NCBI GenBank assembly: GCA_951406725.2
Contig: OX597818.1
Location: 73,036,001 to 73,100,000 of the forward strand
Length of the DNA: 64,000 nucleotides
Source: Octopus vulgaris
Lineage: Eukaryota
Reading direction: 5' to 3'
Shown here: positions 6,431 to 62,059 of the stretch, piece by piece
Numbering within the stretch: the stretch's first letter is position 1
Layout of the letters: every line of letters starts with the position of its first letter
Translations under genes and position numbers: made by a program
The notes under the pieces: model-generated
Told to the model about the DNA's origin: nothing
The model's input: only the letters and a program-made list of their open reading frames with translations
Databases searched by the model: none

Positions 6431-7742
6431 AGTTAAGTTAATTCTTTGGCTCAAAAGGCAAAAAGCAAGGCCATGTAGGGGGACATGGAGTTATGTACAG
6501 GGAGGGTGTTCATGCAAAGAGTTCAGGCCATTTATGGTCAAGAGAGACTTTGAACCGAGCGGTCGTTGGCATCTTCACTATCTCGTCCGGCAGCTTATTC
6601 CACGGATCCGCAACCCGGACGGAAAAAGTCCCTCTCCTTTGATTGAGGTGAAATCGTCGCAGATAGAGCTTTTCGGAGTGACCCCACAGCCGACGCTCTG
6701 GAGCAGGAGTGAGGAACAGCTCTTTCGGGAGGTTACACTTTCCGCTTATGATGTTGTGAGCGAGAATGAGATCACCACGGCGTCGTTGTTTTTCTATAGA
6801 ATAAAGGTCGAGCGTCTTCAGCCTTTCTTCATAAGACAAATGCTTGAGACCAAGAACCATGCGGGTAGCCAGCTTCTGGACTCTTTCGAGATGCTGTATG
6901 TCTTTGAGGAGATAAAGAGAAGAGGTTTGAATCCCGTACTTCAATATGGGTCTCACCAGCGTGACATAGAGCGGTAGGAATATGGCTGCTGTGAGCGTTC
7001 CGAATGACCATCGAATCAAAAACAGAACTCCGCGTGCTTTGTTGGCAGCATGGACGCACTGGGACAAAGGTGAAAAGGAAGAATCCACCAAGATACCTAG
7101 GTCCTTTACCTGGTCGGTCCTCTCCAGCAGCAGACAACCCGGCACGAAATCAAGTTGAGTTGCAGGAGAGGAGCCAACAGGCAGATGACAGCACTTTGAC
7201 ACGTTCAGACACAGGTCCATAGACCATCTTCAAACTTGGTGGAGTCATCGACGAAGATCGTCTATATTACCGCGAGGAGCGACCAGTTTGACATCATCGG
7301 CAAATAGAAGGGTGTGTTGCGTGAGGTCGTCGGGCAAGTCATTTATGAAGACTAAAAACAATAAGGGCCCAAGCACTAAACCTTGAGGCACGACACTGCT
7401 AGCACTGGAGACGTCGGACAGCGAACTATTAACTTGGACTTGGAAGGAGTGATCTGAGAGGAAGGCACCAACCCATCGTACAATATCCGGATGGAAACTA
7501 TATGCTTGAATCTTGACAAGTAATAGGCGGTATTTAACCGAGTCAAAAGCTTTGGCAAAGTCCAATAAAACGATGTCAACAGCATCACCCTCATCCAGGA
7601 TACGCATCACCAATTCTTCCATTACCAGTAAGTTGGTCAAGCATGATCTCTTCGGCACGAAGCCGTGTTGGTAATCAGAGATAGAGGCTGTGTTTTGGAG
7701 GTGTAGCCACATACTTTTCTTAAGGATGGTTTTGAACATACT
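6428..7742 (-). mobile_element. CR1-group LINE, 5'-truncated RT region with frameshift/stop
   Basis: QHGFVPKRSCLTNLL, LDFAKAFDSV, VPQGLVLGPLLF, LFADDVKL, KDLGILVD, LERVQKLATRMV, RRRGDLI. (AACTT)n-type tail at 6428-6443. Confidence 0.92.
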
Positions 7743-7802
7743 AGCGAATTAGCCTACCGGTCGATGTCAAATTCAAGAACTATTTATTTTATGTAAATAA
7801 AC

Positions 7803-8409: not shown

Positions 8410-8840
8410 TATCTCCCTTGCTCACGTGGCTCCAACTTGACCGTTGGCCATCTTTCTTTCTTTCTCTCCGTTGTAGCTAGAACAAGGAAGACTTGTTCTT
8501 GTTTATCTCTTGCCCTAGCTTAATTCACGCGTTTGCCATCACAGCCATGTTTGTTTTTATCTTCCTGTTTGTGTTAACTATTTTGGCCATCGGTAAAATC
8601 CCAAATTTTATTTATTTTCCTTTGCGGGAGCAACTGTTTTATCGAGAGCGTATTGTTGTTAAATACTCGAAATACGAGACTAGAAAACCGCTAACAACTG
8701 ATGAAGGGCCATTCTTTATGTTGTCTGTTTTGTATTTCTTTTGTGTCTTTCGTCGTTCGAAAGAATAGTTCATGTTCCATGTACCCGTGTTTCGTATTTT
8801 TGGATGGACACGTTTCTTGACGTCCTGTGCCCACATATGC
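8410..8840 (+). mobile_element. Short non-coding element carrying a rearranged hammerhead motif (family with 53612-54000)
   Basis: Shares aaaatcccaaattttattt...ctttgcggga and the 3' end cgttt...gtcct(g/a)t(g/a)ccca(c/t)atatgc with the minus strand of 53612-53870. Ends in (TA)n. Confidence 0.7.
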
Positions 8841-19216: not shown

Positions 19217-19262
19217 AACTTGACGTTTCGGCTGATGTACTCTCCAGCCTTCATCAGGTGTC
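19217..19262 (-). ncRNA. Minimal type I hammerhead (left arm, stem I damaged)
   Basis: gacac-CTGATGA-a-ggctg-gagagtacat-cagcc-GAA-acgTC-aagtt. Confidence 0.6.
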
Positions 19263-19694: not shown

Positions 19695-19740
19695 GATACC
19701 TGATGAAGGCTGGAGAGTACATCAGCCGAAATGTTGTGTT
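19695..19740 (+). ncRNA. Minimal type I hammerhead (right arm)
   Basis: gatac-CTGATGA-a-ggctg-gagagtacat-cagcc-GAA-atgTT-gtgtt. Stem I gatac/gtgtt, 5-bp stem II, loop III likely derived from palindromic AACGTT. Confidence 0.75.
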
Positions 19741-34499: not shown

Positions 34500-34735
34500 G
34501 TAAATGTATATATATATGCTAATATATATATATATATACTTATATGTGTGTGTGTCTGTGTGTCTCTCTGTATGTATATGTGTCTGTGTGTATGTATATA
34601 TATATATATACATATATATAATGAAAAATATATATATATACATATATATATATATGTATATATATATACATATATCATCAAAATGATGAGGATATAACCA
34701 TTAAGGAAGCAGACAAGGGAAGTGCAGTTGTAATA

Positions 34736-36626
34736 ATGGATACATCATACTACAGAAATCTTGTAATTTCCTTGCTTGATGACGACCTACATTATGAAAA
34801 AATTACCAACTACACCCCACAAAAAATAATGAAAACTCTATCTTCACTAATGAAAACCCATGAAAAGGAACTAACAACCAAAGAGATTGACTTCCTAACA
34901 AACTTTACATGCAAACCTAGCCTTTTCTATGGTCTGCCAAAAATTCATAAAAGTCAAATTATAAATGAAACCATTAAAAAATCACCAAAGACATACATAC
35001 ACACACCTAACCCGGGGGACCTAATACTACGACCCATTGTAGCTGGCCCAACCTGTGAAACACACAGACTAAGTCTACTTATGGACATCCTCCTGAAACC
35101 CTTCCTTAAACATATCGATAGCCATATCAGAGATGACTTAGATATGTTAAACCACCTTCCAAAAAATGCCAAGGAAGAAACAATCCTGGTTTCATTTGAT
35201 GTAGTTAACTTATATACCAGTATACCTCATAATGATGGACTGGAGGCAATACAGTTCTGGTTAGACCAATTTCCGGAAGAAATACCAAAAAGGATCAGTA
35301 AAGAATTCATTACTAAATCAATTGAATTCATCGTACACAATAACCACTTCATGTTTGACAATACATTTTACCGTCAAAAATCCGGAATTGCTATGGGTAC
35401 AAGGGCAGCACCAGTCATTGCGAACTTAACAATGGGATACATGGAAATAATCATTTACCAGGAATCTTTATCAATCTTTGGAAACCCCTTTCTCAATACA
35501 TAAAGAGAATTGGAAACGATTCTTAGACGATTGTTTTATTCTCTGGAATGAAAACACAGATAAACTCCTAAAATTTAAAAACCTATTGAACAGCATAAAC
35601 CCAAATATACAGTTCACAATGGAATACAACCAAAAGGAGCTCCCGTTCTTGGATATACTAATTAAAAAAATTAACCTTAATATAGAAACAGACATATTTT
35701 ACAAAGCCACAGACGCCAAACAATACCTTCTCTTTAATTCATGCCACCCAAGACACACTAAAACAAACATCCCCTTCAACCTTGCAAGAAGGATATGCAC
35801 AATAGTGTCAGAACAAAATACCAGGAACTTTAGACTGCAAGAACTCAAAAACACCCTAATTGACAGACATTACCCAGCTCAACTCATAGAGGATGGGATC
35901 AGACGTGCAACAGAAATCAACATAGAAACTTTAAGAAAAGTTCAACACAACAACACACCTTCCCCGAAAATACTACCTTACATATCTACATACAACCCCA
36001 GAAACAAAGAAGCCTTCACCATCATCACCCAGAATTTACCAATACTTCATAAAGACCCCAAATTAAAGGAAATTCTAAACATACACCAAATCATTAAAAG
36101 CTACAAACAGCCTAAATCACTTAAAAAGATTCTCACAAAGGCAAAATTGTCTTCTGAAATTACGGATGCAAAAGTAAAAAAATGTGGTAGATCGAACTGT
36201 GCAGCATGTCCTAACCTGCTAGAAGGATCAGAATTCCTCTTTAAAGAGGGACAGAAATTCAAGATCAAATCTAACCTTACTTGTGCCTCTGAAAACATAA
36301 TTTATGTCATAAAATGCTCGGGCTGCCACCAAGACTACGTGGGTTCCACGGGACTATCACTCAGACGTAGATGCACACTGCATCGACAACAGATTGCATT
36401 CCCAGAATATAGAATGATACCTTTTAGTGAGCACATTGAGAAATGCGCAAAGCAACTACTAGCACAATTTTTAATCTTTCCATTTTACCAATGTGCTTTC
36501 GGATCATCAACACAAATTAGACTAAACAAGGAAACATTCTTCATTGAAAAGTACAAGCCCAGACTCAACCATCTGAACATACTGATACACAGAAATTCAC
36601 ACCAAGGGAAAGGAAAAAAAAATTAA
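34736..36626 (+). pseudogene. RT-GIY-YIG ORF split by one frameshift near 35495
   Basis: ORFs 34736-35503 and 35478-36626 join into one Penelope protein with no other stops. Confidence 0.9.
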
Positions 36627-36735
36627 GCGACTATCTCCCTTACACCGGAAGAAATCACTCACTACCTTCCCTTATTTAGAACTCTCCTGAACATAAACAT
36701 AACGATAACTCTATTCAACATAAACATAACGTCAC

Positions 36736-36774
36736 AAGAAATTTGAAAAGCTACACGCGAAACCGGTCTTTCTT
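36736..36774 (+). ncRNA. Minimal type I hammerhead with U3-A8 core in the Penelope 3' region
   Basis: aagaaa-t-TTGAAAA-gc-tacac-gc-GAA-accggT-C-tttctt with palindromic ACCGGT loop III. Confidence 0.6.
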
Positions 36775-37009
36775 TTAAATTATGTCATTATAAGAGAAAA
36801 TTTTTTTTTTTTTATTTTCTAATATTCTTCAGACATATTGACGCAAATATATATATCTTTTAACATTTAAGCCTTCTGTAGTTTTTTCACTCTTTACTTT
36901 TTCTATATATTCACCCACGTGCTTTCACAAACCAACTTTCTTATCTACATATATATATATATAGATAGATATAAACATAGACATATATATAAATACATAC
37001 ATACATATA

Positions 37010-52887: not shown

Positions 52888-52965
52888 GCGGTACATATGT
52901 TTCGGGCTTTTATTAGACGGATTTATAACAATGCATATTGTGTGTCTATGGCCTTCTTCAGCCGC
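52888..52965 (-). ncRNA. Type I hammerhead (left arm)
   Basis: gcgg-CTGAAGA-aggccatagac...gtctaataaaagccc-GAA-acatatgT-A-ccgc. Confidence 0.7.
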
Positions 52966-53611: not shown

Positions 53612-54000
53612 TATATGGGTATAGGACACCTAAAAAACGTAGAACACAACGAGAAACGAAAACATAAAAACAAAAACATGGAAAAGGACTTTTTCAAACA
53701 ACGAAAAAACAGAGTACAAGACATACAACACAAGGAACATTCCCCGTCTTCAGCTGCCCCTGCTTTGACTACTCAGTGTTTCAAAGGTAAGGGCAAGGCA
53801 CGACTTCGTTGAAACAGTCCTTCCCGCAAAGCAAATTAAATAAAATTTGGGATTTTTTGCGAAGGGGTAAAAGTGGTGAGAAGAACAGGACAGTAAAAAC
53901 AAAACAAGACAGTAAAAGCAATACAAATAAAAATAGTAAAAGAGAGGACAAGGAGAATAACACAGTAAACACAAACGATAATTGTTTTTAAGCCGAGACG
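53612..54000 (-). mobile_element. Short non-coding element with rearranged hammerhead (family with 8410-8840)
   Basis: Homology blocks shared with 8590-8840. Ends in TA-rich microsatellite. Confidence 0.7.
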
Positions 54001-60309: not shown

Positions 60310-60640
60310 ATGTTGTTTTTGTCTCATTTGGTCTAAAGTCGTAAGACAACCACCGTTATATTTTGATTATCGATTACTGTTTTCAATTTCGTTTTCGTCT
60401 CTTGTATTTACATCCGTCTCTTGCGTTTACATTCTTGTCTTCTACCAAGAAATCTAATGCTTACAGCTTAGTTTTTTTCTTGGGGCTGGCCGAGTTGGAG
60501 CAAATATCAGAATTGAACAGCCGAAATTTGCTATGATGATTCGGTGTCTGACTGAAGATTGAAGGCTTCGAATGATTTGTCTGTGTTCCGTGTTCGTCCC
60601 TTCCTGTATTTCACGTTCTTTATATATAAAAACATTTATT
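60310..60640 (+). mobile_element. Short (TA)n-flanked element with rearranged hammerhead (60499-60567)
   Basis: Upstream hairpin ccaagaaa/tttcttgg, HHR strands in III-I, II-III, I-II order, T-rich tail. Confidence 0.6.
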
Positions 60641-60861
60641 CTTATATATATATATATATATAAAGTCTGTAGAGATACATTATCCCTGCAGATATCGTGT
60701 TAGATCCCTCTTTGGTCCCAGATGCCGGCTAACCACAACAGTCAGTGTCCAATGCCATTGCTTACAAATAATTGTTAGTAACCAGTAAATTCTCTTTCTG
60801 CGTAATTCTATGTGACCTACTTAAGCCTGTAAAGGTTCCGTGGGGTGTATTATCATATCAA

Positions 60862-62059
60862 CCCTTTTAAAGCGGTTGATGTAAATTTACGCACGCAATG
60901 TATATGTTTTAAATCGGTCGACGTAATTATATTCTGCCTGACTTAGAACCTGTCAATTCAGTTGAGTTAGTACAGGTCCATCTACCAATAGGCCGATTGG
61001 ATGTTTCATGATAATATGTACAACCTGATAGGCTGGTCCTGCCTCTCTGGCTATGTCAGCTTCGTCATCGCGTCCTGTTTCATGATCACCGCGCCAAGTT
61101 ACACCAAGCACCACCACCTCACTAGTTGGTTTTTCCGGTTTGGACGATGACTCGGAGATTAGGTATTTTCCCAGTCCAGAATCATATGATTCCGAGAGCG
61201 ATGATGATATTCCGGTGAATTTAATGTACAAACGTGCATCACTGAATGGCTCTGGACAACAAAATAACGTGTGGCGAGCTAGAGACAACTTCGTCCGACT
61301 GAATGAGTTTACTGGTGCGCCTAGCATAAAGGCAAATCTTGATCATGGAAGTTCCCCACTGGAAATTTTCGACGAGTTTTTGACGGATGAAATGTTCCAA
61401 AATATAGCGGACGAAACGAATGAATATACTGAAAAACCATCCCAAGTATGTCAGACCGAGGCATGGCGGTGATTGGGTTCTAACTACAGGGAAGAACATC
61501 AAAGTTCTGCTTACCCTGATGATACTGATGGGCATCGTGAAGAAACCGACCCTGGCGTCATATTAGAATCGGGATCCAGCCAGGTCAACACATTTCTTTC
61601 CAGAAATGATTCCACGTGATCGAATTTTTGCGTTGATTGGAAATCTACATTTCAACTCAAGCAAGAACTAAGATGACAGATTGTGCAAAATATGTCCCAT
61701 CGTTGGCAAAGTGGCTGAAAAGGGAAACGTAAGGAACCTCGATACCATAGTTCACAATGTGATATTCCAGTGTGTGGTACCCTGTTTTGAACTTTACTAC
61801 ACAAAAGACAATTTTCGAATTCACGTGATTGTAAATACATGAAGTTCATCTGACTTGTGATGTCGAGTAATCTCATTCAGGAATAATAGCGTATGGGCGT
61901 CCTGCACTGGGATATAGTTTAGATAAAGAATCAGTACTTGCACCAAAGCGGGTGACGTAAATATACTCCGAACGTTATCTCTCACTGAGTGCTGACCTCA
62001 ATCGGCGGGATTACCGTTGTCGCGCGCAGGCAACTGAATGAATCACTGCTGTAAACAGG
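60862..62059 (+). mobile_element. Internally deleted piggyBac transposon
   Basis: Acidic N-terminus, SPLEIFDEFLTDEMFQNIADETNEY, LMILMGIVKKP, NLHFN, joined to C-terminal GKRKEPRY..CDIPVC..PCFELY. Imperfect TIRs cccttttaaagcggt / actgctgtaaacagg with TCAA/TTGA flanks. Confidence 0.8.

What the first reader, a model, noticed from the sequence alone, without database searches (positions are those of the whole stretch)
60499..60567. Clearest non-circularly permuted (pseudoknotted) hammerhead: candidate new ribozyme-retroelement system
Seen: agcaaaT-A-tcaga | attgaac | agcc-GAA-Atttgct | 14-nt linker | tctga-CTGA(agat)TGA-a-ggct. Stem III is 7 bp (60499-505 / 60526-532), stem I 5 bp (60507-11 / 60547-51) and stem II agcc/ggct. 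Removing a 4-nt insertion restores CUGAUGA-A-GGCU. With 8649 and 53741 this gives three copies with different stem sequences but the same anti-cyclic strand order, a short I-to-II linker, a 14-15 nt III-to-I linker, an upstream hairpin, a T-rich tail and TA-microsatellite flanks. Established: types I-III are circular permutations, and stems I and II lie side by side in the active fold, so a short covalent I-II link is geometrically plausible. From memory, a rearranged hammerhead has been reported in Xenopus (should be verified), and I know of none from molluscs. Inference: a diversified family of non-coding retroelements uses a rearranged HHR that standard covariance models would miss. Each copy here has at least one defect, so activity is a prediction for the consensus only.
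Basis: partly seen in the sequence, partly recalled or inferred. Interest (0 to 1): 0.92.

Follow-up and report, generated by a model that had tools for sequence, protein, structure and literature searches.

The report
Re-wired hammerhead ribozyme in Penelope-like elements
This stretch is one of many thousands of genomic copies of a probably self-cutting RNA (a hammerhead ribozyme) whose parts are wired in a knotted order that I found in no paper; the same wiring sits at the tail of Naiad jumping genes from corals to octopuses, which were reported to lack such a ribozyme, but cutting has not yet been tested in a tube.

Summary
Real, and stranger than reported. The cleavage-site, GAAA, CUGAnGA order (non-circular, "type-SGC") is confirmed. 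Two motif searches give 10,528 and 6,865 matches in this genome, against 70 and 3 for reversed controls, and stems covary across subfamilies.

Two corrections. The 60499 copy is not defective: CUGAAGA (60552-58) is intact. Stem II pairs not with the GGCU after the core but with an upstream strand (60484-88), and a fourth helix (60489-96/60538-45) joins the linkers. One subfamily has lost the downstream strand. The backbone is thus open between A9 and G10.1, a wiring outside the six published permutations.

The copy belongs to a young 692-bp non-coding Penelope-like element (tandems, inversions, tail, TA targets). Published Naiad consensus sequences, said to lack hammerheads, carry this fold (cnidarians, an acanthocephalan, octopus) or type-CSG (nematodes). 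Genomic 5' ends pile up just 3' of the predicted cut (32 of 108, against 2 of 76 just upstream; scored by eye), suggesting cleavage in vivo. There is no biochemical or RNA test. The scan noted rearranged hammerheads in Penelope-like elements of two other genomes before.

The parts
60311..60647 (+). 5'-truncated copy of a 692-bp non-coding Penelope-like (retrozyme-like) unit, between (TA)n tracts; fixed 3' end about 141 nt after the cut
   Evidence: 98-100% identical copies; unit 692 nt between two cuts in L061; arrays of up to 4 units
60484..60488 (+). Stem II 5' strand (G10.1 side), placed upstream of the whole core; pairs with 60518-60522
   Evidence: lowest-energy fold of 60484-60558
60489..60496 (+). 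Fourth helix (P4) 5' strand; pairs with 60538-60545 and joins the far ends of stems I and II to stem III
60499..60506 (+). Stem III 5' strand, U16.1 (60505) and H17 = A (60506); predicted cut between 60506 and 60507
   Evidence: pile-up of 5' ends
60507..60511 (+). Stem I strand 3' of the cut; pairs with 60547-60551
60518..60532 (+). Stem II 3' strand (60518-22), GAAA (60523-26), stem III 3' strand (60526-32)
60538..60545 (+). Fourth helix 3' strand
60547..60558 (+). Stem I partner strand (60547-51) and intact core C3-A9, CUGAAGA (60552-58)
60559..60567 (+).
   Evidence: absent in L462-L466
8628..8704 (+). Decayed copy of the same fold, clade A
53747..53823 (-). Decayed copy of the same fold, clade B

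Best explanation
It is a hammerhead ribozyme with a wiring I found in no paper, sitting near the 3' end of Penelope-like retroelements. The 5'-to-3' order is: stem II strand, P4 strand, stem III strand, UH cut site, stem I strand, stem II partner, GAAA, stem III partner, P4 partner, stem I partner, CUGAnGA. This is the published type-SGC knot with its ends joined and re-opened between A9 and G10.1. Proposed cycle: the element is transcribed, often as tandem units. The ribozyme cuts after H17 (60506). The two products stay held by stems II, P4 and III, which should favour re-ligation and, in tandem transcripts, unit-length circles. A Penelope-type endonuclease and reverse transcriptase, borrowed in trans, nicks (TA)n DNA and starts copying at fixed internal sites (+141, or about 33 nt further, giving the tail). 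Copying stops at or just short of the cut when the template is cleaved, and runs on when it is uncut or re-joined, giving partial tandems. Shown by sequence: the fold's conservation, copy numbers, element architecture, presence in Naiad 3' UTRs, and the step in 5' ends at the cut. Inferred: catalysis, ligation, circles, and the identity of the mobilising enzyme.
For: Four-helix model on real copies: clade C, 22 sequences, 95% of cells paired, 10 of 23 pairs with two-sided changes, 0 of 500 shuffles reach the score, slid registers 13-50%. Clades A and B, 27 sequences, 92%, 15 of 21 pairs. Upstream stem II: 97% paired, 18 two-sided cells, nearly all Watson-Crick; downstream alternative: 77%, 6 cells, mostly G-U. 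Five of five fetched copies of one subfamily have no GG after the core but keep the upstream strand (L462-L466). In the supplement of PMC8557442, read by eye, the same split wiring with no downstream strand is in three Acropora Naiads, Naiad_Plae and the record before it (Naiad-2_Movir by the metadata order) and one unnamed record in part 9. Naiad_Ovul and the record before it have the upstream strand with only a weak downstream one. Six nematode-section records show type-CSG order with the same P4. This genome holds that Naiad 3' end (L108, L441-L452) and, at another locus, a decayed Naiad reverse transcriptase followed by the start of the same UTR (L454). 5' ends within 0..+13 nt after the cut versus the 14 nt before it: 20 of 68 vs 1 of 48, 12 of 40 vs 1 of 28, 4 of 25 vs 0 of 21. 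Penelope-type marks: partial tandems, inverted copy (L076), 30-35-nt tail (L064, L069, L076, L080), (TA)n flanks, matching PMC8557442 and PMC11167929. Extra bases between positions 9 and 10.1 are a known feature of Penelope hammerheads (PMC4209133).
Against: No cleavage assay and no informative RNA data. The 5' ends peak at +6/+7 rather than at 0, were scored by eye next to microsatellites, and about 70% of copies read through the cut. In a canonical Penelope-like element, ribozyme mutants did not change insertion in vitro and no RNA-seq reads began or ended at the cut (PMC11167929); metazoan Penelope hammerheads cleave weakly in vitro. Subfamilies are related, so the shuffle controls overstate significance, and I chose well-preserved copies for the alignments. 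P4 is the least perfect helix (83%, partly a register shift in the 6 clade-A rows; 91%). The downstream strand also shows one two-sided change between clades A and B. Nested folding of 131-136-nt windows gives unremarkable z-scores (0.5 to -1.9) and other folds. The one Naiad reading frame I saw here is decayed, and the paper calls cephalopod Naiads long inactive, so the young family is probably moved by another Penelope clade. No long open frame was seen with clades A, B or C, but only one such locus was scanned for frames.
Confidence: 0.72

Rival explanations
1. Plain type-SGC hammerhead: stem II forms with the strand after CUGAnGA (1-nt or 5-nt bulge), and the upstream complement is an off-switch or coincidence.
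For: A downstream complement exists in clades A and B and in most of clade C (97-100% paired over 4 bp). A 1-nt bulge there is typical of Penelope hammerheads. Eckert's tested type-SGC has this wiring.
Against: The downstream strand is absent in a whole subfamily and in Acropora and acanthocephalan Naiads. It is mostly G-U, and does not follow the stem II changes of L105 or L281, which the upstream strand does. The octopus elements may still use both strands in turn.
Confidence: 0.13
2. The fold is real but no longer, or only rarely, catalytic. It serves as the RNA element that the Penelope protein binds, and the pile-up of 5' ends comes from the reverse transcriptase stalling at a refolded structure.
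For: Most copies read through the cut, and the peak is at +6/+7. Cleavage was dispensable for insertion in vitro in another element. In the young family 5 of 30 units also end at +15 to +56, inside the fold.
Against: All catalytic core positions and the not-G rule at H17 are kept across subfamilies and phyla while stems turn over. Several copies start exactly at the cut (L098, L102, L146, L295, L306), and almost none in the 14 nt before it.
Confidence: 0.12
3. Chance pairing in an AT-rich repeat amplified by transposition; one ancestral accident copied many times.
For: Copy number alone says nothing about function, and single windows do not fold unusually well.
Against: Two-sided changes in all four helices across at least a dozen subfamilies, and the same wiring with unrelated stem sequences in three phyla.
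Confidence: 0.03

Closest known systems
Type-SGC and type-CSG hammerheads (Eckert et al. 2023, PMC10085705; main text read through the discussion, supplement not seen)
   Same: Cyclic order cleavage block, GAAA block, CUGAnGA block; short link from stem I to stem II; an extra helix tying stems I and II; double pseudoknot; about 75 nt.
   Different: There CUGAnGA and the stem II strand are taken as one unbreakable block; here that strand lies upstream of the whole core. Theirs come from metatranscriptomes and metagenomes; these are in animal chromosomes in thousands of copies.
Naiad clade of Penelope-like elements (Craig et al. 2021, PMC8557442; passages, and supplement parts 1, 12 and 24 plus motif searches)
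   Same: (TA)n targets, partial tandems, inverted copies, tail. The same fold is in the 3' UTR of their consensus sequences, and one family of this genome (L108, L441-L452) is that UTR.
   Different: The paper reports no canonical hammerhead in Naiads and marks Naiad_Ovul only as 'half core'. The window's element is non-coding, and beyond the ribozyme I showed no sequence similarity to Naiad.
Non-LTR retrozymes and minimal Penelope hammerheads (PMC7229834 passages; PMC4209133 parts 1-2; bioRxiv 10.64898/2026.07.22.740005 parts 1-3)
   Same: Non-coding tandem units of a few hundred bases with one hammerhead each, thought to be moved by Penelope-like elements through circular RNA.
   Different: Those use circularly permuted type I hammerheads with a short stem III that work as dimers. 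This one has full stems and should work as a monomer, and units are longer (692 nt here; periods of about 830-1320 nt in clades A and B).

Membership tests
Hammerhead ribozyme | Core C3-U4-G5-A6-N7-G8-A9, G12-A13-A14, A15.1-U16.1, H17 | tested here: met
   60552-58, 60523-26, 60505-06; kept across subfamilies
Hammerhead ribozyme | Three helices flanking the core, with covariation | tested here: met
Hammerhead ribozyme | Self-cleavage 3' of H17 | not testable with these tools
   only the indirect step in genomic 5' ends
Hammerhead types I-III (Rfam) | Circularly permuted order, no pseudoknot in the core | tested here: not met
   order is cleavage, GAAA, CUGAnGA; no Rfam hammerhead match listed
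Type-SGC hammerhead (Eckert 2023) | Block order S, G, C | tested here: met
Type-SGC hammerhead (Eckert 2023) | Stem II strand follows CUGAnGA within 1-2 nt (block C unbroken) | tested here: not met
   five bases intervene in the clade of 60499; strand absent in L462-L466; upstream strand covaries better
Type-SGC hammerhead (Eckert 2023) | Helix joining the far ends of stems I and II | tested here: met
   P4
Penelope-like element (non-autonomous) | Partial tandems, inverted 5'-truncated copy, 30-40-nt tail, microsatellite targets | tested here: met
   against PMC8557442
Naiad clade | Own reading frame with N-terminal GIY-YIG endonuclease and C-terminal reverse transcriptase | tested here: not met
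   the 692-nt unit is too short for it; a Naiad frame is linked only to family D
Naiad clade | Mobilised by Naiad protein | tested here: inconclusive
   shared fold and (TA)n target, but the Naiad seen here is decayed; one chimera with another Penelope clade in 30 loci
Non-LTR retrozyme | Tandem non-coding units, each with a hammerhead | tested here: met
Non-LTR retrozyme | Type I hammerhead | tested here: not met
   see block order above
Non-LTR retrozyme | Expressed as circular RNA | not testable with these tools
   only assembled contigs were served

The most novel reading that the evidence does not exclude
Naiad-type Penelope-like elements and their non-coding dependants across animal phyla carry one family of knotted hammerheads, opened at different points of the same circle: between A9 and G10.1 in cnidarians, an acanthocephalan and cephalopods (a seventh natural wiring), and before P4 in nematodes (type-CSG). 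They cut the transposition RNA in the germ line, and the three helices that hold the products together make them efficient self-ligases that form the circular template.
Probability: 0.5. Interest if true: 0.95.

Novelty: new variant of a known kind. Interest (0 to 1): 0.89.

Why it matters
Non-circularly permuted hammerheads were known only from unassigned environmental RNA and DNA, and the six-permutation scheme assumes that CUGAnGA and its stem II strand cannot be separated. This finding puts such ribozymes in animal chromosomes at more than ten thousand copies and adds a wiring outside the scheme. It would overturn the statement that Naiads spread without a hammerhead, and it explains why type I descriptors missed them. 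The step in 5' ends at the cut gives a genomic read-out for the open question of whether Penelope hammerheads cut in vivo. Three natural openings of one knotted circle also give a testable route for how such permutations arise in tandem or circular RNA.

Tried and rejected
Rfam: only microsatellite-driven microRNA and other weak matches. Penelope element at L078 as autonomous parent: rejected, since only 1 of 30 loci of that family carries the ribozyme and the family has its own CUGAUGA about 1.4 kb after the frame; read as a chimera. Penelope element at window 34625-36626 as parent: no such fold in its 3' UTR in 12 aligned copies. A type I reading using the hairpin after the core: no stem III or stem I partner seen by eye. 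Expression: no RNA holder listed; four runs laid were contigs only, with no joints and no end pile-ups; not evidence either way. Metagenome scan with a clade B pattern: stopped at 120 stretches with evenly spread spacing; 9 of the 80 fetched loci scored with model R1, and the three alignments shown had no convincing stems; treated as chance. Twelve family D loci did not reach a reading frame within 1.3 kb. Pfam gave only sub-threshold RVT_1 and GIY-YIG hits for the window element, none for the 980-aa frame and nothing relevant for the L454 fragment. Searches were my own errors (unoriented loci; structure strings off by one or two columns) and are not used; the intended register appears as slide -1, 45 of 45 cells paired, invariant. 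The script machine was lost, so tallies of 5' ends are by eye. The paper reader closed, so the supplement of PMC10085705 was not seen; it could hold variants with a split block C. Supplements of the 2026 preprint were not seen. Motif searches in the Naiad supplement were partial (15 of 25, 59 of 62, 15 of 43 and 15 of 23 places shown; line breaks can hide motifs), so they give examples, not a census. 'Not in print' rests on searches of open-access full text only.

Full report
What is there. That order is type-SGC of Eckert et al. 2023 (PMC10085705, main text read). They showed such RNAs cleave, found them in metatranscriptomes, and found none in genomes of known organisms apart from one weak bacterial case. 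The word Xenopus does not occur in that paper.

Copy number. The window lies in a 2.8-Gb genome. The 60499 copy is 98-100% identical to the 40 best-scored matches, and a 23-mer from its tail has 418 exact matches. The copies at 8649 and 53741 belong to older families whose majority sequences have complete cores. Spacing patterns give 10,528 matches against 70 for the reversed control, 6,865 against 3 and 6,198 against 0. Of 72 hits of the first pattern that I examined, 71 looked like members or truncated members, and one (L084) belongs to another family.

First correction: the core is intact. All 100 listed matches have a contiguous CUGAnGA, then five variable bases, then GGCU.

Second correction: stem II. 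Every family has, 17-27 nt upstream of the cut, a five-base strand that is a Watson-Crick complement of the strand before GAAA (window 60484-88 with 60518-22). In 27 copies of clades A and B it pairs in 97% of cells with 18 two-sided changes; the downstream alternative pairs in 77% with 6, mostly as G-U. In L105 and L281 the stem II strand changes and only the upstream strand follows. Five of five fetched copies of one subfamily have no GG after the core yet keep the upstream strand, and three of three copies of another have a changed downstream strand. The two long linkers pair with each other as a fourth helix (60489-96 with 60538-45), which is the lowest-energy fold of that stretch. The four-helix model gives 95% paired cells and 10 of 23 pairs with two-sided changes in 22 clade C copies, and 92% and 15 of 21 in 27 clade A and B copies. 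No shuffle reaches the covariation score, and slid registers give 13-51%. The copies were picked as well preserved and are related, so these are not probabilities. The wiring equals type-SGC with its ends joined and re-opened between A9 and G10.1 (inference from the description). It breaks the assumption behind the six-permutation scheme. It is plausible because extra bases at that junction are usual in Penelope hammerheads (PMC4209133).

The element. The unit is 692 nt, forms arrays of up to four, has a fixed 3' end about 141 nt after the cut running into (TA)n, has variable 5' ends, and sometimes has an inverted copy and a 30-35-nt tail at one end. These are the marks of Penelope-like elements (PMC8557442; PMC11167929). 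Clades A and B show periods of about 830-1320 nt.

Link to Naiads. PMC8557442 says Naiads lack canonical hammerheads and flags eight families, Naiad_Ovul among them, as 'half core'. Reading its consensus file by eye, Naiad_Ovul and the record before it end in the complete fold with upstream strand and fourth helix. So do three Acropora Naiads, Naiad_Plae and the record before it and a record in part 9; these last have no GG after the core that could form stem II. Six records in the nematode section show the order CUGAnGA, stem II strand, cleavage block, GAAA block, that is type-CSG, with the same fourth helix. In this genome, L108 and L441-L452 are that Naiad 3' end. L454 holds a decayed reverse transcriptase that matches the published Naiad frame by eye, followed by the start of the same UTR (91% over 135 nt to L449). 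The near identity to the published octopus Naiads points to an octopus-type host (inference). No single locus I fetched joins frame and ribozyme.

Does it cut? Reverse transcription copies the RNA from its 3' end, so a cut template should leave copies that begin at or just after the cut. By eye, 20 of 68 clade A and B copies begin at 0 to +13, against 1 of the remaining 48 in the 14 nt before the cut (four of 72 hits left out, one non-member and three singletons). For clade C the numbers are 12 of 40 and 1 of 28 (36 loci in list order without the young family, four picked for diversity). For the young family they are 4 of 25 and 0 of 21, with 5 of 30 ending at +15 to +56. A hand chi-square on the first two sets pooled is about 21. 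L098, L102, L146, L295 and L306 start at the cut itself. Against this: the commonest start is +6/+7, microsatellite flanks blur the boundary, about 70% of copies read through, and in another Penelope element cleavage was dispensable in vitro and unseen in RNA-seq. No RNA run could test it.

Mechanism. Most likely the ribozyme cuts tandem or read-through transcripts. The products stay paired through three helices and can re-join, and a borrowed Penelope enzyme primes at fixed internal sites on (TA)n targets, as proposed for retrozymes (PMC7229834; PMC4209133). Which enzyme is open. The Naiad seen here is decayed, whereas other Penelope families have long open frames, and one chimera joins the young element to one of them (1 of 30 loci). 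Clade names for these other families (Neptune-like, Hydra-like) are recalled from motifs, not tested.

Novelty. Searches of open-access text listed no paper with these permutations in animal genomes or Naiads; I saw only listings for most of the hits. Two earlier notes of this scan mention rearranged hammerheads in Penelope-like elements of other genomes. I saw them after reaching this reading and could not check their wiring. Verdict: new variant of a known kind, interest 0.89.

Noticed in passing
window 19226-19257 (-) and 19700-19731 (+): Inverted pair of hammerhead-like motifs in the ordinary order (CUGAUGA, one extra A, stem II hairpin, GAAA); 2 matches against 0 by chance. A stem III complement lies about 55 nt upstream; L084 looks related.
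   Followed up: partly
window 34625-36950 (+): Frameshifted Penelope-like element (reverse transcriptase, then GIY-YIG) of a large family, 93-97% identical in protein. Its 3' UTR has GAAA, a palindromic stem III and GUC, but no CUGAnGA on that strand.
   Followed up: partly
L078 4165-5868 (-): Chimera: the 3' part of another Penelope element joined to the young ribozyme element; possibly a template switch.
   Followed up: partly
L241 1026-3968 (+): Open 980-aa Penelope frame with a long asparagine-rich insert and no Pfam match; its family has CUGAUGA about 1.4 kb after the stop.
   Followed up: no
PMC8557442 supplement, parts 13-16: Nematode Naiad consensus sequences carry clean type-CSG hammerheads, a type published from only two metagenomic sequences. 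One record in part 16 shows the S-G-C order with a hairpin inserted and no clear stem II.
   Followed up: partly
window 60559-60575, and the same place in clades A and B: A short hairpin can form right after the core, and in clades A and B the upstream stem II strand can also pair in a local hairpin; possible on/off switching.
   Followed up: no
window 61086-61472 (+): Broken frame that resembles a piggyBac transposase (recalled motif, not tested).
   Followed up: no
window 6510-7748 (-): LINE-type reverse transcriptase fragments.
   Followed up: no
window near 52961 (-) and 53271 (+): Near-identical stretch in inverted orientation about 310 nt apart.
   Followed up: no
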